UHGV virus genome: UHGV-1355377
Length of the DNA stretch: 41,184 nucleotides
DNA from: a virus
Direction: 5' to 3' (one strand)
The stretch's first letter is position 1. Each line of letters begins with the position of its first letter. The notes beneath the pieces are model-generated. The model ran no database searches. It worked only from the letters and a program-made list of their open reading frames with translations, and was not told where the DNA came from. This document shows, in pieces, positions 8,415 through 18,232 of the stretch. Made by a program: the position numbers and the translations under genes.

Positions 8415-9347
8415 TTGTCAGATAAACAGAAAAAGCGTTATTACTGGCTTAAATTGAAAGAAAACTTTTTTGAAGAAGACACAATCGAATGGTTAGAAGA
8501 ACAACCCAACGGAAAAGAGTACTGCTTAATATATCTAAAATTATGTTTGAAATCTTTAAAAACTGATGGGGTGTTAGTAAGGAACGTTGGCAGCATGTTA
8601 ATCCCTTACGATGCCGAGACACTCGCTAGGGTCACAAATTCCACCGTCGACACTGTAAAAGTTGCGATGGATTTATTTAAGAAAATAGGACTAATACAGT
8701 TGCTCGATACTGGTGAAATATATATCAATCAACTTAATGAACTAGTTGGATCTGAGACAGAAGCAGCCAAACAAAAACGCTTGCAAAGGTCAAAGGTGGA
8801 CAATGTCCCTAAATTGTCCTCTGAATGTCCTGAAAATGTCGCCCAGAGTATAGAGTTAGAGTATAGAGATAAGAGTATAGAGAAAGATAATAAAGAAGAG
8901 CCAAAGAAATCTCCTTGTAAATATTCTGACGAACATTTACGTCTTGCTCAAAAATTACAAAATAATTTAATCAATGATTTTCCGAGTGAAATGAAAAGAG
9001 TGAACATTGAAAAGTGGGCTGACACGTTTAGGCTAATCGAAGAACGAGATCAACAAACTATTGCAGCAATTGACTATGTTCTTGATTGGTTACCGACAAA
9101 TTCATTCTGGTTTGGAAACATTAGAAGTGCTTCTAAGCTAAGAGCGCAGTTTGAAAAACTAAAATTTGAAATCAAGAATGAAAAAGAACGGGGCCAACAA
9201 CGAACGACTTACCAACGTCAAAATGTTAGGACTGAAAATTTACCAGGATGGGCAAAAGAATCAAATAACCAGCAAGAAGAAAAGTTATCGCCAGAAGAGC
9301 AAGCGGAACTTGATAGACAAATAAAAGAATTCATGGAGGGGAAATGA
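8415..9347 (+). CDS. DnaD-like replication initiation/replisome organiser protein
   Basis: N-terminal YYWLKLKENFFEEDTIEWLEEQPNGKEY...IYLKLCLKS is typical of phage replisome organiser N-domain proteins. TTG start with AAAGGGGAA SD. Confidence 0.6.
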   Translation: MSDKQKKRYYWLKLKENFFEEDTIEWLEEQPNGKEYCLIYLKLCLKSLKTDGVLVRNVGSMLIPYDAETLARVTNSTVDTVKVAMDLFKKIGLIQLLDTGEIYINQLNELVGSETEAAKQKRLQRSKVDNVPKLSSECPENVAQSIELEYRDKSIEKDNKEEPKKSPCKYSDEHLRLAQKLQNNLINDFPSEMKRVNIEKWADTFRLIEERDQQTIAAIDYVLDWLPTNSFWFGNIRSASKLRAQFEKLKFEIKNEKERGQQRTTYQRQNVRTENLPGWAKESNNQQEEKLSPEEQAELDRQIKEFMEGK

Positions 9348-9646
9348 TGAACGAATTAGTTAAATTAGTAGAAGAATGGGCGAAAGAAAAGCATTTAGAT
9401 AAAGCAGAGCCAGAAAAGCAAATGTTAAAAGTGATTGAGGAAGTCGGAGAAGTTGGCGCTGCATTGGCAAGAAATAATGAAAATGATCTAAGAGATGGTA
9501 TAGGTGATGTGGTTGTGACGTTAATTATTCTCGCTATGCAAAATAACATGGACTTATACGAATGCTTAAATCAAGCATACAGCGAAATTAAAAATCGGCA
9601 AGGGGAAATGGTAAACGGAGTATTCGTCAAAGAATCCGATTTGTAA
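9344..9646 (+). CDS. MazG-like nucleotide pyrophosphohydrolase
   Basis: EEVGEVGAALAR...DGIGDVVVTLIILA matches the MazG/NTP-PPase helix motifs. About 100 aa. Confidence 0.7.
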   Translation: MMNELVKLVEEWAKEKHLDKAEPEKQMLKVIEEVGEVGAALARNNENDLRDGIGDVVVTLIILAMQNNMDLYECLNQAYSEIKNRQGEMVNGVFVKESDL

Positions 9647-9667
9647 GGTTTGGGGTGGAAAGAGATA

Positions 9668-10192
9668 ATGACAAAGTACCCAACACAAGAATTAAAAAAC
9701 AAAAGAAAATTTCATGTGCAATTCATGAGTACAGAGGCAATGAAAAATATTTATGAGCTAGGATATCCCTTTGAATACTTCGAAGATAGTTGCCAATTTG
9801 CGATTGAAACGCCTGTAGGTGTCATTGATTACTTCGGGATAAATGGCACTTGGGTTGTCCGCAAAGGACAAGACCGAGGGAAAGGCATACGAAAATTGAA
9901 GCAGTACATTAAAAACAGAGTAGGTGATCACGTGGAAAAAGTAAAAGTAGTGAAATGTAGTGGATATCTGGATAAAGACGGTAACATCACTAATCAAATT
10001 AAGCAGGCGATGCATTTTACAGACGATGAATTAGCGAATCTTGCTGCAGAAGTGGCAGGTGGAAAGGTCGTAAACGTTGTAATTCCACCAGAAAAGCCAA
10101 AACAATTACTTGAAAAAGTGAAAGAAGAATCATTTCAAGAAAAACCTAAAAAGAAAACCAAGAGCAATCAATCTTGGATGAAGAAGAAATAA
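9668..10192 (+). CDS. Hypothetical phage protein
   Basis: ORF with GGTGGAAAGAG SD before ATG 9668. Basic C-terminus. Confidence 0.45.
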   Translation: MTKYPTQELKNKRKFHVQFMSTEAMKNIYELGYPFEYFEDSCQFAIETPVGVIDYFGINGTWVVRKGQDRGKGIRKLKQYIKNRVGDHVEKVKVVKCSGYLDKDGNITNQIKQAMHFTDDELANLAAEVAGGKVVNVVIPPEKPKQLLEKVKEESFQEKPKKKTKSNQSWMKKK

Positions 10193-10317
10193 TTTGTTGT
10201 TTTTTGTAACGTGATTTAACCGTAGCTAGATTTTAAAACTAGTTTAGGGTAATTAATCATAAATGATTTAAAACGCCTTAAATCGAAAAATAAAGCGGTA
10301 AATTGTGAGGTAAAAAA

Positions 10318-10545
10318 ATGAAATTAACTAGTGTGACATTTAAGCCGTCGGCTGAACGTTTTCCGCCAATTGTGGCAATAGATTTAGACCAATTAACACC
10401 AGAGGAATACGTGACACTTAGAAATTTGGGGTATGACACGCAACTTTCCAAAATTACAAAAAGGACCTTTGAAGAGTTGGAAGGCCATTTGGGAATTCGA
10501 GGAGACGTTGCAAAGAAAAATGGATTTTATGTATTAATCAAATAA
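10318..10545 (+). CDS. Small hypothetical protein, first gene of the MTase-recombinase cassette
   Basis: 75-aa ORF preceded by GTGAGGTAAAAAAATG. Confidence 0.45.
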   Translation: MKLTSVTFKPSAERFPPIVAIDLDQLTPEEYVTLRNLGYDTQLSKITKRTFEELEGHLGIRGDVAKKNGFYVLIK

Positions 10546-10549
10546 TCAG

Positions 10550-10595
10550 AAAGGAGTGGAGTTTGTGGCCACAGTAAAGAATTCTTTACTCCTTT
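10550..10595 (+). promoter_or_regulatory. Nested-palindrome element A (SD arm / GC palindrome / AT palindrome / anti-SD arm) between upstream stop and C5-MTase start
   Basis: AAAGGAGT (10550-57) pairs with ACTCCTTT (10588-95). Enclosed are TGTGGCCACA (10564-73) and AAAGAATTCTTT (10576-87). ATG follows 6 nt after. Confidence 0.6.
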
Positions 10596-10601
10596 GAAAT
10601 T

Positions 10602-11345
10602 ATGATAGTATGGGCACTATTTGATAGTGGGAACGGATGTTATAAGCGTTCTGCACAAAAGTTTGAAGATATAGAAATATACAGCATAGGTTTGGATATT
10701 GAAAATAAGAATGACCATTTTATTCATCTGAATTTAGCGGACTATTCTTATATGTTTAATGATAATAAATTATTCAAAGTTTTAGACAAATTACCAAAGC
10801 CAGATTTAATCATTGCAAGCCCACCATGTGAAAGCTGGTCAGTAGCTAGTGCAATGAAAAATGGTAATGCTTGTTGGAAAAGAGAAGATGTAACAGATAA
10901 TTTATTTGCACCACAGATATTACCAAGCCCGTTTACTATAAGAACCACAAAAGATTACGAAGATACTAATTATGTTTATGAACGACAATTTTTAAAAAGA
11001 GTGAATGGTGAGTTAACGGTTTTTAATACTATAAAAATTATAAAAAAGTACCAACCTAGATATTTCATTATTGAGAACCCGGCTAATGGTAAAATTTGGG
11101 AATATATTGAAGATGTCTTGAATTTTAAACTACCATTTAAAAATTTAACCAGGTATAACAATTATGATTATCCATTACAGAAGCCCACGAAATTTGCCAG
11201 TAATATTCATTTGGGATTGAAAAATAAAGTTATTAAACAAGAAATTGCCTGGAGCAATTTTTCCAAAAGCTATAATGAACGATCAAATATTCCAGAAAAA
11301 TTAGTGGATGACATATTTAAAAAAGTTTTAGAGAAAAATAAATAG
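10602..11345 (+). CDS. C5-cytosine DNA methyltransferase catalytic-domain protein, short (motifs I, IV, VI, VIII present; TRD and motifs IX-X absent)
   Basis: Motif I LFDSGNG. Motif IV PDLIIASPPCESWSVAS, matching the PDL..GGFPCQ.FS.AG pattern with catalytic Cys. Motif VI PRYFIIENP (ENV). DYPLQKPTK resembles motif VIII. Only 247 aa. Confidence 0.5.
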   Translation: MIVWALFDSGNGCYKRSAQKFEDIEIYSIGLDIENKNDHFIHLNLADYSYMFNDNKLFKVLDKLPKPDLIIASPPCESWSVASAMKNGNACWKREDVTDNLFAPQILPSPFTIRTTKDYEDTNYVYERQFLKRVNGELTVFNTIKIIKKYQPRYFIIENPANGKIWEYIEDVLNFKLPFKNLTRYNNYDYPLQKPTKFASNIHLGLKNKVIKQEIAWSNFSKSYNERSNIPEKLVDDIFKKVLEKNK

Positions 11346-11393
11346 AAAGGAGCGGAGATTTGCGGCCGCGATTAAAAAGCTTTTTGCTCCTTT
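11346..11393 (+). promoter_or_regulatory. Nested-palindrome element B, paralogue of element A, between C5-MTase stop and N6-MTase start
   Basis: AAAGGAGC (11346-53) pairs with GCTCCTTT (11386-93). Enclosed are GCGGCCGC (11362-69) and AAAAAGCTTTTT (11374-85). ATG follows 7 nt after. Every difference from element A is a compensatory double change. Confidence 0.6.
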
Positions 11394-11400
11394 AAAAACG

Positions 11401-12561
11401 ATGAAATTAACAACAGAAAAAATAAATGAACTGTTAGGTGTTGATGATGCCTACAAAGCGCCAGAAGCGCTCATGAATATATTACTAAATCGTGATAAAC
11501 GAGAAATCGTGTTTAACAGATTTTTAGAAATAGAAAAGGATTTAACTTTCGATTGGTTTCACGAATATTTTCAAGAAGAACATGCTGATCGAAAGCAAAA
11601 GAAACAAGACTTCACGCCAAACTCAGTTGGAAAAGTGTTGTCACTGATTTTAGACCATTCAGAGTCAACTTTAGATGTTGCTGCTGGCACTGGTGGATTA
11701 ACGATAAAAAAATGGTGGAACGATGGACAACCAACAAACAACGAGTATCTTTGCGAAGAGCTATCAGACAGAGCAGTGCCATTCTTACTATTCAATTTAA
11801 TGATTAGGGGCATGAAAGCTCAAGTGATTCACGGTGATAGCCTAAGCGGTGTGACGAAAAAAGTATATATAATTTCAGATTACGAATTAACAGAAATAAA
11901 CGAAGAATTAGCAATTGAAAAGGTAGATGCTGTAATTTCGAATCCGCCCTACTCAGCAAAATGGGATGCTAGTCCAACGTTGCTAGATGATCCAAGGTTT
12001 AGTCATTACGAAAAGTTAGCACCAAAAACAAAAGCAGATTTTGCATTCTTGCTACATGGTTTTTATCGTTTAAAAGATTCGGGGACAATGGCAGTTGTCT
12101 TGCCGCACGGTGTTCTTTTCCGTGGTGCCGCTGAAGGTGTTATTCGTAAAAAATTATTAGAAGATGGCAGTATTGATGCAGTTATTGGATTGCCTGCTAA
12201 CTTATTCTTTGGCACGTCAATACCAACGGTAATAATTGTTTTAAAGAAAAATAGACAAACACGTGATGTCATGTTTATTGATTCTAGCAAAGAATTTGAT
12301 AAAGGAAAAAATCAAAACTCTTTATCAGACGATCACATCAATAAAATTATTCACACATATAAAGAACGAAAAGACATCGAGAAATATGCTCATTTAGCTA
12401 GCTATGATGAAATAACAGAAAATGACTTTAACTTGAATATACCAAGATTTGTAGACACATTCGAAGAAGAAGAGCCAATCAATCCATTCGAGTTATTAGC
12501 AGATATAAGAAAAACGAATGAAGAGCTAGCTAAAGCAGAAAAAAACTTGTCTCAATGCTAG
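11401..12561 (+). CDS. N6-adenine DNA methyltransferase, HsdM-like (gamma-class) orphan
   Basis: Motif I VAAGTGGL, motif IV NPPYSAKWD, and HsdM-like MAVVLPHGVLFRG block. 386 aa; no hsdS or hsdR nearby. Confidence 0.75.
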   Translation: MKLTTEKINELLGVDDAYKAPEALMNILLNRDKREIVFNRFLEIEKDLTFDWFHEYFQEEHADRKQKKQDFTPNSVGKVLSLILDHSESTLDVAAGTGGLTIKKWWNDGQPTNNEYLCEELSDRAVPFLLFNLMIRGMKAQVIHGDSLSGVTKKVYIISDYELTEINEELAIEKVDAVISNPPYSAKWDASPTLLDDPRFSHYEKLAPKTKADFAFLLHGFYRLKDSGTMAVVLPHGVLFRGAAEGVIRKKLLEDGSIDAVIGLPANLFFGTSIPTVIIVLKKNRQTRDVMFIDSSKEFDKGKNQNSLSDDHINKIIHTYKERKDIEKYAHLASYDEITENDFNLNIPRFVDTFEEEEPINPFELLADIRKTNEELAKAEKNLSQC

Positions 12562-12627
12562 ATGAGTTAGTCGTTGATACTGATGAATCAAGAGCGTTAA
12601 TTCAAGCAACAAAAGAGGTGTTCGGAA

Positions 12628-13584
12628 ATGGCTAAAAATTCAAAACAAACAGAGAGAACCTTTGCCAGTTATTTTGCTGAATGGATTGCAACTTATAAAG
12701 AAGGGGCAATTGCAGAAATATCAGTCAATAAGTATTACTATGCGTTAGATTTTATTTTAAAAACAATACCGTCGTTAAAAATAAAGGATTTAGACAGACG
12801 TGCCTATCAGAATGTGTTGAACGAGTACGCAAAAACACACGAGCGACAAACAACAATGGATTTTCACCATCAAGTGAAATCATGCATCCAAGACATTTTC
12901 CATGATGGGTTGATAGAAAGAGATCCAACATATAAAGCAGTAATAAAAGGACGTCCTCCAGTTCGAAAGAAAAAGAAAAAATTTCTACAGAAAGAAGAAC
13001 TAAGAAAGCTTATAAGTTCATTGGACTTAAGTCCCGAAATTAGTATTGACTGGTTTATTTTAATTATAGCAAAAACGGGTCTGCGTTACGCAGAAGCATT
13101 AGCTTTAACGCCAGCGGATTTTGATTGGTCAGCTCGCACACTAAGAGTAAACAAGACATGGAACTACAAAAGCACCCAAGGCGGCTTTAAGAGTACGAAA
13201 ACAACGAGTTCAGAAAGAACAATTAGCATAGATTTTCAAATTGTTGGTCAGTTTCAACTAGTGATTAAAGATTTGCCAGCAAATGAACCGATTTTCGTTG
13301 AAAAATTTGAAGATGGTTCTTATAAAAGACAATTCAATTCAACTTACAACAATTTTCTAGTGAGCGAATGCAAGCACTTAGGGATAACACCTATCAGCCT
13401 GCACGGTTTACGTCACACGCATGCAAGTGTATTGCTTGCTGCTGGAGTATCGATTCATAGTATTTCCGCTCGTTTAGGTCATGCGAATATAGGTGTTACA
13501 CAAGAAACTTATGCACATGTTTTGGACGAGTTACAAAGAAAAGACGATGAAAAAATGATGGGCGCATTAATGCAGTTAGCTTAA
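12628..13584 (+). CDS. Second tyrosine recombinase (Xer/phage-integrase family), internal to the prophage
   Basis: C-terminal catalytic signature HGLRHTHASVLLAAG...ARLGHANIGVTQETYAHV (R, HxxR, Y). 318 aa. RBS AAAGAGGTG. Confidence 0.8.
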   Translation: MAKNSKQTERTFASYFAEWIATYKEGAIAEISVNKYYYALDFILKTIPSLKIKDLDRRAYQNVLNEYAKTHERQTTMDFHHQVKSCIQDIFHDGLIERDPTYKAVIKGRPPVRKKKKKFLQKEELRKLISSLDLSPEISIDWFILIIAKTGLRYAEALALTPADFDWSARTLRVNKTWNYKSTQGGFKSTKTTSSERTISIDFQIVGQFQLVIKDLPANEPIFVEKFEDGSYKRQFNSTYNNFLVSECKHLGITPISLHGLRHTHASVLLAAGVSIHSISARLGHANIGVTQETYAHVLDELQRKDDEKMMGALMQLA

Positions 13585-13601
13585 ACGAGGTGAATCAATA
13601 C

Positions 13602-14108
13602 ATGGCTAAAAAATGGACAGAAGATGACGACATTTATTTAGAATATTTTGTTTTTGAAGGCGACACTTTAGTAGAAGAAGCTGCTGATTTTTTAGGTAGA
13701 AGCTTTGGTGCTGTTTGTACGAGGCTAACAGAATTGAGAAAAAAAGACCCAGAAGTGCGGTATTTAAAGCGGCGTTGGTCTAAAAAAGAAGATGATTTTC
13801 TACGTAGAAACTACAGGTCCATATCAACAAATGATTTAGCATTAGCATTAAATAGAACTACTGAAGCAGTTAAATCTAGAAGAGCATTTCTCGGTTTGAC
13901 TTTGATACGACCAATAACGCCAAGAAAAGAAGAGATACTTGAATTGATTAAGAAAGGTTATTACAGACCACAAATAGCAAAAGCTCTCAATATAGATGAA
14001 AAATCACTTAGTAAATTTTTAAAGATAAACAATATATATTGTCCAGCTGTACCTTATGAAAAACGAACAAAAGAAGTAAAAAAATATATTTACAAACAAT
14101 ACAGATAA
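13602..14108 (+). CDS. Myb/SANT-like tandem-repeat protein with C-terminal HTH
   Basis: Two repeats: WTEDDDIYL...GRSFGAVCTRLTELRK and WSKKEDDFL...NRTTEAVKSRRAFLGL (W-x2-E-D-D-x-L...R). C-terminal ILELIKKGYYRPQIAKALNIDEKSLSKFLK is HTH-like. Start likely ATG 13602 after GAGGTGA. Confidence 0.5.
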   Translation: MAKKWTEDDDIYLEYFVFEGDTLVEEAADFLGRSFGAVCTRLTELRKKDPEVRYLKRRWSKKEDDFLRRNYRSISTNDLALALNRTTEAVKSRRAFLGLTLIRPITPRKEEILELIKKGYYRPQIAKALNIDEKSLSKFLKINNIYCPAVPYEKRTKEVKKYIYKQYR

Positions 14109-14112
14109 AAAC

Positions 14113-14347
14113 ATATCGCAATCACAGTTAGATGCTGAAAGACGCCTTCGAAAAAATAAATTATAGAAGGAGGTGAGGGGTTTCTTCTCTTACCACCGGG
14201 ACAGCAAGCAAATAACTCAGCTCAGCTTCTACTTTTATATCTTTGAACAGGCGGTTCCAAGATATAAAAACCTAGAGGGCAGCTAGCGAGCATGCCGGAT
14301 AGTGTGCCATGACCTAGTCTTTCAGCATCTAGCTGTGATTGCGATGT
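14113..14347 (+). repeat. 235-bp element: 29-bp inverted repeat (14115-14143 / 14317-14345; 31 bp with G-U) enclosing a 173-bp segment with a central 13-5-13 palindrome (14236-14266)
   Basis: ATCGCAATCACAGTTAGATGCTGAAAGAC versus the reverse complement of GTCTTTCAGCATCTAGCTGTGATTGCGAT. The single difference is a G-U pair only in the + strand RNA. Inside, TATATCTTTGAAC-aggcg-GTTCCAAGATATA has one mismatch. Sits between the Myb-like gene stop and the yopX start. Confidence 0.7.
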
Positions 14348-14377
14348 AAGTTTCTGTTTAGAAAGCGAGTGAAGAAA

Positions 14378-14791
14378 ATGATTCCAAAGTTTAGAGCATA
14401 TTCAGTAAAAGAAAACATAATGTATTATCCTGATGAAGATAAAAATGTAGAATGGACTATTGATGATGATACAGGATTTATAGCGCCTCTTATAAATCTA
14501 GAAAATGGCATGTGGGGAATGATTGATAAGTATGTTCTCATGCAATCAACAGGCTTGAAAGACAAGAACGGCGTTGAAATTTTTGAGGGTGATATAGTTA
14601 AGGTCACGGTGAATAATTATGGAACTGGTGAACGATTTGAACAAATCGATAAAGTTGTTTATGAAGACTGCAGATTTTGTTTTAATGACGGCTTTTATTA
14701 CTCAGAAACTATCAAATATTCTGGATATGAAAATAAAGAAGTCATCGGAAATGTCTACGAAAATCCAGAATTATTGGAGGGAACAGAATGA
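14378..14791 (+). CDS. YopX-family phage protein
   Basis: MIPKFRAYSVKEN...GLKDKNGVEIFEGDIV is typical of YopX N-terminal sequence. Likely start ATG 14378, in frame with the track ORF. Confidence 0.65.
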   Translation: MIPKFRAYSVKENIMYYPDEDKNVEWTIDDDTGFIAPLINLENGMWGMIDKYVLMQSTGLKDKNGVEIFEGDIVKVTVNNYGTGERFEQIDKVVYEDCRFCFNDGFYYSETIKYSGYENKEVIGNVYENPELLEGTE

Positions 14792-18158: not shown

Positions 18159-18232
18159 TGGCGTGTAGCTCAATTGGTGAGAGCGGTTGGTTTTCAATCA
18201 AGTACATGCAGGTTCGACTCCTGTCACGTCAA
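18159..18232 (+). tRNA. tRNA-like gene, anticodon UUC (Glu) by manual folding
   Basis: Acceptor TGGCGTG/CACGTCA with one G-U. D arm GCTC-AATTGGTGA-GAGC. Anticodon arm GTTGG-TTTTCAA-TCAAG with U33, A37 and one G-G mismatch at 27:43. Variable loop TACAT. T arm GCAGG-TTCGACT-CCTGT. No encoded CCA. Confidence 0.55.

What the first reader, a model, noticed from the sequence alone, without database searches (positions are those of the whole stretch)
10318..14378. Compact cassette inside the prophage early region: truncated C5-MTase + HsdM-like N6-MTase + second tyrosine recombinase + Myb-like HTH protein + a 235-bp IR-flanked site. Candidate recombinase-controlled DNA-modification switch or mobile cassette
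Five co-directional, tightly packed genes (10318-14108) end in an element with a near-perfect 29-bp inverted repeat (14115-14143 / 14317-14345). The IR encloses 173 bp, centred on a lox/dif-like 13-5-13 palindrome, TATATCTTTGAAC-aggcg-GTTCCAAGATATA (14236-14266).

A second site-specific tyrosine recombinase is not needed for the lytic or lysogenic cycle: int sits at the left end. Its placement beside long inverted repeats that carry a recombinase-type core site is the classic signature of an invertible or excisable DNA switch (fim, hsdS shufflons, Bacteroides invertons). Here it is coupled to two orphan methyltransferases of different chemistry (m5C and m6A) and a Myb-like DNA-binding protein.

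No hsdS or hsdR is present, so it is not a standard phase-variable Type I system. I do not recognise this arrangement as a described system.
Basis: partly seen in the sequence, partly recalled or inferred. Interest (0 to 1): 0.85.

Follow-up and report, generated by a model that had tools for sequence, protein, structure and literature searches.

The report
Phage methylase cassette with hairpin end
The inverted repeat is real, but it is a lineage-specific hairpin at the end of a swappable three-gene phage cassette (methylase, recombinase, DNA-binding protein), and 21 public copies give no sign that it flips.

Summary
The sequence features are real. A 29-31 bp inverted repeat (14115-14143 / 14317-14345) encloses 173 bp, and five co-directional genes precede it.

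The five genes are not one unit. The block that moves between Enterococcus faecalis prophages is 11337-14397. It holds an HsdM-type adenine methylase with no specificity subunit, a tyrosine recombinase with all catalytic residues, a Myb-like protein, and the hairpin.

The three proteins belong to a widespread phage module with no description in the literature I could search. The recombinase family is in 576 viral contigs. It sits in the methylase slot of Listeria, Enterococcus and Lactococcus phages. In most copies the methylase is only a SAM-binding half with no NPPY motif.

The hairpin is not part of that module:
- The nearest sister phage has the trio and the same flanks but no hairpin.
- No copy exists outside this one cassette allele.
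- All 21 evaluable contigs carry the inner segment in the same orientation.
- No promoter-like site was found inside it.

The invertible-switch reading is therefore not supported. "Exchangeable cassette" is partly right. The hairpin's function is unresolved. My best guess is a long hairpin in the early transcript that serves as a processing or insulating site. The trio's function is unknown.

The parts
10318..10545 (+). 75-aa ORF of unknown function (phrog_5677). A neighbour, not part of the mobile block.
   Evidence: Present in phages with and without the cassette.
10548..10604 (+). Intergenic linker hairpin (AAAGGAGT...ACTCCTTT around GTGGCCAC) upstream of the C5-methylase-like gene. It is repeated at 11342-11397.
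10602..11345 (+). Compact C5-cytosine-methylase-like protein, 247 aa. An independent module of the methylase slot.
   Evidence: PF00145 matches only the motif IV region. Full-length match to phrog_2882. Absent from L004, which carries the cassette. Present beside other slot contents.
11342..11397 (+). Second copy of the linker hairpin (AAAGGAGC...GCTCCTTT around GCGGCCGC). It forms the left junction of the cassette in several phages.
11337..14397 (+). The block that moves as one unit between E. faecalis prophages at about 96% identity ('version A' cassette).
11401..12561 (+). HsdM-type N6-adenine methylase. It has a phage-specific N-terminus, a complete catalytic domain (AGTGG, NPPY) and no HsdS partner. 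This allele is frameshifted at the C-terminus (386 aa against 411 aa).
12628..13584 (+). Xer-like tyrosine recombinase of 318 aa with no arm-binding domain. The catalytic residues R153, K191, H259, R262, H285 and Y295 are conserved.
13590..14108 (+). Myb/SANT-like DNA-binding protein with two Myb-like repeats and a C-terminal LuxR/resolvase-type HTH. The probable start is the ATG at 13602.
14115..14143 (.). Left arm of the inverted repeat. It extends to 14113 in the alleles with a perfect 31-bp repeat.
14144..14316 (+). The 173-bp segment between the arms, 42% G+C against about 33% around it. It has no credible ORF and no promoter-like site, and folds only modestly on its own.
14233..14269 (.). 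Inner 16-5-16 palindrome with one mismatch, off-centre within the segment.
14317..14345 (.). Right arm of the inverted repeat. It is invariant in all copies.
14361..14397 (+). Conserved yopX ribosome-binding site and first codons (MIPKFR). This is the right junction, where homology to phages without the cassette resumes.

Best explanation
Positions 10.3-14.4 kb are the variable methylase slot of the early operon of an E. faecalis phiFL/phiEf11-type prophage. The slot holds two independent modules.

Module 1 is a compact C5-methylase-like gene between two roughly 60-bp linker hairpins.

Module 2 is a 3.06-kb swap-in cassette (11337-14397). It contains:
- an HsdM-type adenine methylase that has lost its HsdS partner
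- a catalytically intact Xer-like tyrosine recombinase
- a Myb-like protein with several HTH units
- a 235-bp long-stem hairpin at the 3' edge

The three proteins belong to a widespread, uncharacterised phage trio: (half-)HsdM, recombinase and Myb-like protein. The trio alternates with ordinary methylase genes in the same slot, so by inference it has an accessory role such as counter-defence or DNA transactions.

The inverted repeat is an add-on specific to this one allele. It is not the trio's general substrate. Most likely (inferred, not shown) it is transcribed within the early polycistronic RNA. There it would form a 29-31 bp double-stranded stem, long enough in principle for RNase III. 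That stem would serve as a processing, stabilising or insulating site between the cassette and yopX. It is probably not an invertible DNA switch.
For: Shown:
- Host and phage type.
- Block boundaries and co-movement of the block.
- The same slot holds PcfU in phiFL2A. It holds M + half-HsdS in EfsPF36 and about 25 other contigs.
- In Listeria phages the trio (B025 gp42-44) alternates with plain methylase genes between the same flanks.
- The trio recurs in nearly all loci whose recombinase is at least 59% identical, across several genera and in several gene orders.
- The recombinase family is in 576 viral contigs, and its catalytic residues are invariant or nearly so.
- The half-methylases cover only profile positions 9-121 of the 311-position N6_Mtase profile.
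- The repeat is absent from the sister phage L072 and from all distant trios.
- It has one orientation in all 21 evaluable contigs.
- No promoter-like site lies inside it.

For the transcript-hairpin reading:
- The element is co-directional and intergenic within an operon.
- The + strand folds to -108 kcal/mol (z = -10) against -94 kcal/mol for the - strand.
- The inner part folds better than shuffles only on the + strand (z = -2.1 against -0.1).
- Five of eight stem substitutions among haplotypes remain G-U compatible on the + strand, against two on the - strand.
- An analogous but non-homologous 26-bp-stem intergenic element lies beside the Myb gene in L069.
Against: - No transcript data exist.
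- No compensatory double substitutions were seen, because only three haplotypes are available.
- The element matches no Rfam family.
- A near-perfect 31-bp stem is just as well explained at the DNA level.
- Three stem substitutions break + strand pairs.
- Other cassettes in the same slot need no hairpin before yopX.
- The adjacency of an intact tyrosine recombinase to a long inverted repeat remains a real coincidence to explain.
- The trio's function is entirely inferred from its position.
Confidence: 0.4

Rival explanations
1. Invertible DNA switch. The adjacent tyrosine recombinase inverts the 173-bp segment between the 29-31 bp arms and so changes expression of yopX and downstream genes, or of the cassette itself.
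For: - The architecture fits an inverton: a non-random long inverted repeat around a short segment.
- It lies 530 bp from a recombinase gene whose catalytic residues are intact.
- The inner palindrome can be read as 12-7-12, compatible with a tyrosine-recombinase core site.
Against: - None of the 21 evaluable contigs is inverted.
- Short-read assemblies run through the element without breaks.
- No promoter-like site lies inside it.
- The recombinase family is conserved in hundreds of phages that lack any such repeat, including sister phage L072.
- No similar palindrome lies near the recombinase in relatives.
- The arms differ by one-sided substitutions that have not been homogenised.
Confidence: 0.15
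2. Cassette-end recombination site. The hairpin is a folded-DNA or duplex site, loosely like an integron attC, at which the recombinase excises, circularises or inserts the cassette. This would explain the shuffling in the methylase slot.
For: - The repeat sits within about 12-16 nt of the point where homology to cassette-free phages resumes.
- In L069 an analogous hairpin sits at the edge of a hairpin + Myb insertion that splits the methylase gene exactly before NPPF.
- The trio occurs in three rotations of one cyclic gene order: MT-Int-Myb, Int-Myb-MT and Myb-MT-Int. This is what a circular intermediate or a tandem duplication would give.
Against: - Only two lineages have any hairpin, and the two are not demonstrably homologous.
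- The left boundaries are at a conserved linker or inside the methylase gene. That is typical of homologous module exchange.
- No direct repeats flank the block.
- L011 has the other cyclic order.
- No circular junction has been observed.
Confidence: 0.1
3. Non-functional relic. The palindromic structure arose once, for example by template switching or illegitimate recombination when this allele formed. It hitch-hikes with the cassette.
For: - It is confined to one closely related allele (96-100% identity) and is found nowhere else.
- Its divergence (about 3.5-4%) equals that of the neighbouring DNA.
- Sister cassettes function without it.
Against: - A 31-bp perfect or near-perfect repeat has been kept in all three haplotypes with no indels.
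- Long palindromes are usually unstable unless tolerated or selected.
- Its G+C content differs from the surroundings.
Confidence: 0.2
4. Miniature transposable element (MITE), or a small toxin/sRNA gene with 5'-3' fold-back.
For: - The element has terminal inverted repeats and a total length of 235 bp.
- In L154 a different inverted-repeat element downstream of an M+S pair is a promoter plus a small hydrophobic ORF with fold-back pairing.
Against: - No other copy exists in the window, in 185,579 species-representative genomes, in phage or plasmid records, in IMG/VR or in JGI metagenomes.
- There is no target-site duplication.
- There is no promoter-like site and no hydrophobic ORF. The only ORF is 37 aa, starts at a GTG that overlaps its own Shine-Dalgarno sequence, and is not membrane-like.
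Confidence: 0.03

Closest known systems
Phage orphan Type I-like methylases (HsdM + short HsdS), as in Enterococcus phage 1_EfsPF36 (CP124927) in the same slot
   Same: The adenine methylase has the same phage-specific N-terminus and an HsdM catalytic domain, and is 52% identical. It occupies the same position between the C5-methylase-like gene and yopX.
   Different: In this window the 146-aa HsdS gene is replaced by a recombinase, a Myb-like protein and a hairpin. The methylase has also lost its C-terminal helix. How it would find DNA targets is unknown.
Listeria phage B025 gp42-gp43-gp44 and B054 gp64-gp65 (annotated DNA methyltransferase / site-specific integrase / D5-like regulator)
   Same: The recombinase is 62-66% identical. 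The Myb-like partner is the same, the methylase N-terminal family is the same, and the location is the same early-region slot.
   Different: The Listeria versions carry only the SAM-binding half of the methylase, or none at all in B054. They have no inverted-repeat element. I found no publication on their function.
Phase-variable Type I R-M loci (hsdS shufflons with a tyrosine recombinase)
   Same: hsdM lies next to a tyrosine recombinase, and an inverted repeat is nearby.
   Different: There is no hsdS, no hsdR and no coding sequence inside the repeat. All five recombinase homologues whose context I inspected were in prophage early regions, not host R-M loci.
Invertons (fimS, Bacteroides promoters, C. 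difficile RecV switches)
   Same: A short segment is flanked by inverted repeats of 20-30 bp. This comparison rests on my own knowledge of those systems.
   Different: Only one orientation is seen in 21 contigs. No promoter or terminator is detected in either orientation. The repeat is missing from homologous cassettes.
RNase III processing hairpins in phage early polycistronic mRNAs (T7, lambda, SP82; from my own knowledge)
   Same: The element is intergenic, co-directional with the operon, has a long double-stranded stem, and folds better on the + strand.
   Different: It is much longer (235 nt), with a near-perfect 29-31 bp stem and a branched interior. No processing data exist.
Integron cassettes (ORF + attC hairpin, IntI tyrosine recombinase)
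   Same: A structured imperfect palindrome lies at the 3' edge of an exchangeable unit next to a tyrosine recombinase.
   Different: There are no R/L box pattern, no attI and no array. The recombinase lies inside the cassette. Only the generic C-terminal region matches integron-integrase models, far below their cut-offs.

Membership tests
Invertible DNA switch (inverton) | Inverted repeats flanking a short segment | tested here: met
   Arms of 29-31 bp around 173 bp. Far longer than the chance expectation.
Invertible DNA switch (inverton) | Both orientations occur in natural populations or assemblies | tested here: not met
   All 21 evaluable contigs from IMG/VR, JGI, ENA and Logan have one orientation relative to the Myb gene. 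Read-level data were not available.
Invertible DNA switch (inverton) | An orientation-dependent regulatory element (promoter or terminator) inside the segment | tested here: not met
   No promoter-like or terminator-like site at 14100-14360 on either strand. This was a consensus scan only.
Invertible DNA switch (inverton) | A cognate recombinase acts on the repeats | not testable with these tools
   An intact recombinase gene is adjacent, but homologues occur without any repeat.
Phase-variable Type I R-M system | hsdS genes carrying the inverted repeats | tested here: not met
   tblastn with the EfsPF36 half-HsdS finds nothing in the window, even at E = 10. There is no credible ORF in the element.
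Phase-variable Type I R-M system | hsdR restriction subunit | tested here: not met
   None among the ORFs at 8.4-16.5 kb.
HsdM-type N6-adenine methylase (PF02384) | SAM-binding motif I and catalytic motif IV (NPPY) in a full catalytic domain | tested here: met
   PF02384 scores 262 bits over profile positions 9-310 of 311. AGTGG and NPPY are present. The match to PDB 3lkd covers residues 65-377. It is below the TIGR00497 hsdM equivalog cut-off because the HsdM N-terminal domain is absent.
HsdM-type N6-adenine methylase (PF02384) | A partner specificity (HsdS) subunit | tested here: not met
   Absent in this window. Present beside the orthologue in EfsPF36 and about 25 other contigs.
Tyrosine recombinase (PF00589) | Catalytic R-K-H-R-H/W-Y residues | tested here: met
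   R153, K191, R262, H285 and Y295 are invariant and H259 is at least 90% conserved in 20 homologues of 59-68% identity. PF00589 scores 83.5 bits.
MITE / dispersed repeat | Multiple dispersed copies and a target-site duplication | tested here: not met
   Only one copy per phage, always in the same cassette. None in the species-representative genomes, phage records or plasmids.
Known structured RNA family (Rfam 15) | A match at the gathering score | tested here: not met
   The only hit in the window is tRNA-Glu at 18159-18232. Only chance-level hits at E up to 10 in 13900-14600.
Structured RNA (any) | Compensatory base-pair changes across homologues | tested here: inconclusive
   There are only three haplotypes. 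All eight stem substitutions are one-sided. No distant homologue was found.
Integron cassette / attC | attC with R''-L''...L'-R' boxes and an IntI-type integrase with its specific insertion | tested here: not met
   No GTTRRRY/RYYYAAC ends are visible in the sequence. The integron-integrase models match only residues 237-301, at 26-40 bits against cut-offs of 265-435.

The most novel reading that the evidence does not exclude
The (half-)HsdM + Xer-like recombinase + Myb-like trio is a new phage system for counter-defence or for rearranging its own DNA. It would be built on a catalytically active recombinase and a SAM-binding methylase fragment that cannot methylate. In the E. faecalis full-methylase allele, and analogously in L069, the long hairpin would be its cis-acting site. 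It would be recognised as folded or duplex DNA to excise, circularise or insert cassettes in the phage methylase slot, giving an integron-like exchange mechanism inside phage genomes.
Probability: 0.1. Interest if true: 0.85.

Novelty: new variant of a known kind. Interest (0 to 1): 0.45.

Why it matters
As an inverton, the finding would have been a new recombinase-controlled epigenetic switch in a phage. The evidence does not support that.

What remains is still useful. The recombinase is strongly conserved (59-77% identity across genera, with intact catalytic residues) and occurs in 576 viral contigs. It is almost always paired with a Myb-like protein and a methylase, or with a methylase fragment that cannot methylate. 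It sits exactly where related phages keep ordinary anti-restriction methylases.

That pattern suggests an unrecognised accessory function, most plausibly counter-defence or DNA rearrangement, in temperate phages of Listeria, Enterococcus and Lactococcus. These hosts matter for food safety, hospital infection and phage therapy. The E. faecalis allele, with a full methylase and a unique hairpin, is a convenient experimental entry point.

Tried and rejected
1. Known RNA family: no Rfam hit at gathering or permissive thresholds.

2. MITE or EFAR-like dispersed repeat: no other copies anywhere. The literature search for EFAR returned nothing on such a repeat family.

3. hsdS remnant inside the element: tblastn with the half-HsdS was negative.

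4. Recombinase target shared with the host or other phages:
- The palindrome pattern scanned over 185,579 genomes gave two unrelated hits.
- Half-sites in the window are at the chance level.
- No comparable palindrome lies near the recombinase in 14 related loci.

5. Homology between the window hairpin and the L069 hairpin: I first thought the arms were similar with compensatory changes. A permutation test showed the similarity is not significant (p = 0.2-0.4), and nhmmer finds nothing.

6. The inverted repeat in L097-L102 lies inside coding sequence. The Listeria repeats of 21-25 bp lie in the cI-cro control region, about 2-3.5 kb upstream of the recombinase. The L154 repeat is a promoter plus a small hydrophobic ORF. 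None is the same kind of element.

7. Small ORF in the element: the only candidate is 37 aa, starts at a GTG overlapping its own Shine-Dalgarno sequence, and is not membrane-like.

8. Literature: eight searches found no description of the trio or the element.

9. An exact-sequence look-up of the Myb-like protein from the GTG start was not on record, because the gene is called from the ATG at 13602.

Full report
**Context.** The window is an Enterococcus faecalis temperate phage of the phiFL/phiEf11 type. Region 9600-15200 matches 31 Enterococcus phage records at 80-99% identity, in pieces. The lysogeny integrase (434 aa, - strand) is at the left end. The stretch under study lies in the rightward early operon, after the replisome organiser and MazG genes and before yopX.

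**Observation.**
- The five ORFs are co-directional, with gaps of 5-66 nt.
- The inverted repeat is exactly where reported (14115-14143 / 14317-14345, one mismatch, 173 bp between the arms).
- It is the longest inverted repeat in the window: 29 nt, against at most 18 nt in 100 randomised sequences.
- The inner palindrome is real but ordinary. It is 16-5-16 with one mismatch, lies 21 nt off-centre, and several similar ones occur elsewhere in the window.
- The C5-methylase-like protein is not truncated relative to its own phage family (phrog_2882).

**What the unit is.**
- Scanning IMG/VR, JGI metagenomes and ENA/Logan assemblies for the repeat arm or for the recombinase recovered over 20 contigs.
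- In these contigs window 11337-14397 aligns colinearly as one block at about 96-100% identity.
- The 75-aa ORF and the C5-methylase-like gene are not part of the block. L004 joins the block directly to the 75-aa ORF through one copy of a roughly 60-bp linker. In the window that linker is duplicated on both sides of the C5 gene, at 10548-10604 and 11342-11397.
- The right edge always carries the yopX ribosome-binding site and first codons, whatever follows. In some phages only an 8-codon yopX stub follows.
- Against phages that lack the block, homology resumes at 14357-14361, which is 12-16 nt outside the right arm.

**What else occupies the slot.**
- phiFL2A has PcfU there.
- Phage 1_EfsPF36 and about 25 other viral contigs have a 410-447-aa orthologue of the adenine methylase followed by an overlapping 145-171-aa half-HsdS. 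That pair is a complete orphan Type I-like methylase.
- The window methylase is 52% identical to the EfsPF36 one and has the full catalytic domain (AGTGG, NPPY). It has no HsdS anywhere in the window. Its C-terminus is frameshifted (386 aa against 411 aa), an allele shared by several independent contigs.

**The protein trio.**
- The recombinase has about 8,000 database relatives below E = 1e-10. The best 120 are 59-99% identical.
- 576 viral contigs encode a relative.
- Its catalytic residues are invariant or nearly so in 20 diverse homologues.
- Every context I inspected is a prophage early region. These are Listeria (including phages B025 gp42-44 and B054 gp64-65), Enterococcus avium, Lactococcus lactis, and metagenomic phages.
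- In loci whose recombinase is at least 59% identical, it nearly always sits beside a Myb-like protein of 164-228 aa. It also sits beside a protein homologous to the first roughly 160 residues of the window methylase.
- In most cases that protein is only 197-251 aa. It covers positions 9-121 of the 311-position N6_Mtase profile, which is the SAM-binding half, and it lacks NPPY.
- Gene order varies: MT-Int-Myb, Int-Myb-MT, Myb-MT-Int and Myb-Int-MT. In L069 the order is Int-MTn-hairpin-Myb-MTc, where the methylase is split exactly before NPPF.
- In Listeria phages the trio alternates with ordinary methylase genes between the same flanks.
- The half-methylase also occurs without the recombinase within about 4 kb on either side (L179-L197).
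- I found no publication on this module.

**The repeat is not part of the trio.**
- L072 is a sister phage with 98% identical flanks (9000-11637 and from 14361 onward). It carries a diverged trio (half-methylase 230 aa, recombinase 314 aa, Myb-like 190 aa), and its Myb gene overlaps the yopX start. It has no hairpin.
- None of the distant trios has a comparable repeat next to it.
- nhmmer finds the element only in the version-A cassette.
- Arm and inner-segment patterns find the same contigs and nothing else in IMG/VR.
- There is no copy in 185,579 species-representative genomes, in INPHARED phages or in PLSDB plasmids.

**Is it a switch?**
- All 21 evaluable contigs have the inner segment in the same orientation relative to the Myb gene.
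- Short-read contigs read straight through the element.
- No promoter-like or terminator-like site is detected inside it.
- No credible ORF is present.
- Only three haplotypes exist. Their eight stem substitutions are all one-sided, and the arm substitutions lie only in the left arm. That gives neither covariation nor arm homogenisation.
- These results do not exclude rare inversion, or inversion only during lytic growth. They do remove the positive case.

**What it might be.**
- On the transcribed strand the element folds to -108 kcal/mol, against -94 kcal/mol for the opposite strand.
- The interior folds better than shuffled sequence only on the + strand (z = -2.1 against -0.1).
- Five of the eight substitutions are G-U-tolerated on the + strand, against two on the - strand.
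- L069 has an unrelated 186-nt intergenic element with a 26-bp stem next to its Myb gene (-57 kcal/mol, z = -3.5). Its arms are not significantly similar to those in this window.
- I therefore favour, weakly, a long hairpin in the early transcript. This rests on established knowledge of RNase III sites in phage early mRNAs, not on a test here.
- The rivals are a recombination site at the cassette edge, an inverton, and a neutral palindromic relic.

**Verdict.** It is not supported as an invertible modification switch, and the cassette was mis-delimited. The more interesting object is the widespread recombinase / Myb-like / (half-)methylase trio in the phage methylase slot, whose function is unknown.

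Noticed in passing
window 10548-10604 and 11342-11397: Two copies, about 80% identical, of an intergenic linker that folds as a hairpin. AAAGGAGT/ACTCCTTT in one copy becomes AAAGGAGC/GCTCCTTT in the other, a compensatory change. Each encloses a G+C-rich 8-bp palindrome (GTGGCCAC, GCGGCCGC). The only Shine-Dalgarno-like sequence for the downstream methylase genes lies in the 5' arm, about 45 nt from the start codon. This suggests a split or regulated ribosome-binding site, or an operator.
   Followed up: partly
L023 5328-6008, L016 5292-5987 and 7519-8304, L020 5282-5989, L001 3828-5144, L081 2758-4008, L012 5238-5945: Methylases of four different families, and the half-methylases, next to the recombinase end in QMSLF(D), QLELF, QLKLF, QLSLL, QMSLL or QLDLF(G). 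This resembles the bacterial beta-clamp-binding motif QL[SD]LF (from my own knowledge) and suggests tethering to the replication clamp. The E. faecalis version-A alleles lack it. A literature search on clamp-binding motifs in phage methylases found nothing.
   Followed up: partly
window 12540-12561: The adenine methylase allele in this window ends ...EKNLSQC* (386 aa). Other copies continue ...EKKLVSMLDELV... to 411 aa. The frameshifted allele recurs in several independent metagenome contigs (L111, L112, L114, L115, L117), so it is not a sequencing error.
   Followed up: yes
L069 4948-6852: A split HsdM-type methylase. A 164-aa N-terminal half is followed by a 186-nt hairpin element and a Myb-like gene, and then by a 229-aa C-terminal half that starts MTSVLMNPPF. 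The Pfam profile is divided 9-120 / 128-310 between the two halves.
   Followed up: partly
L157 461-5641: A different arrangement in a metagenomic phage. Two half-methylase genes (186 and 185 aa) and one catalytic C-terminal half (221 aa) lie between two tyrosine recombinase genes (339 and 318 aa). This may be a system for exchanging methylase N-terminal halves.
   Followed up: no
L154 4770-5005: Downstream of an M + half-HsdS pair lies a consensus promoter (TTGACA-17-TATAAT). It is followed by a transcript with 23-nt 5'-3' fold-back arms that encodes a 34-aa hydrophobic peptide (MIIIKLILAILIILETFQD...). This resembles a type I toxin-antitoxin locus.
   Followed up: no
L006, L018, L029, L109, L110 (right edge of the cassette): In these phages the cassette is followed by only an 8-codon yopX stub (MIPKIEVW*), then a hairpin terminator and a convergent gene. 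The recombination junction therefore lies in the conserved yopX 5' end.
   Followed up: yes
window 18159-18232: A phage-borne tRNA-Glu (anticodon TTC), 58.8 bits against the Rfam tRNA model.
   Followed up: no
L035-L060 (Listeria phages), e.g. L057 1933-2087: An inverted repeat of 21-25 bp with a loop of about 111 nt recurs in the region between the divergent repressor and cro-like genes of Listeria phages that carry the trio. It is probably operator architecture and is unrelated to the recombinase.
   Followed up: no
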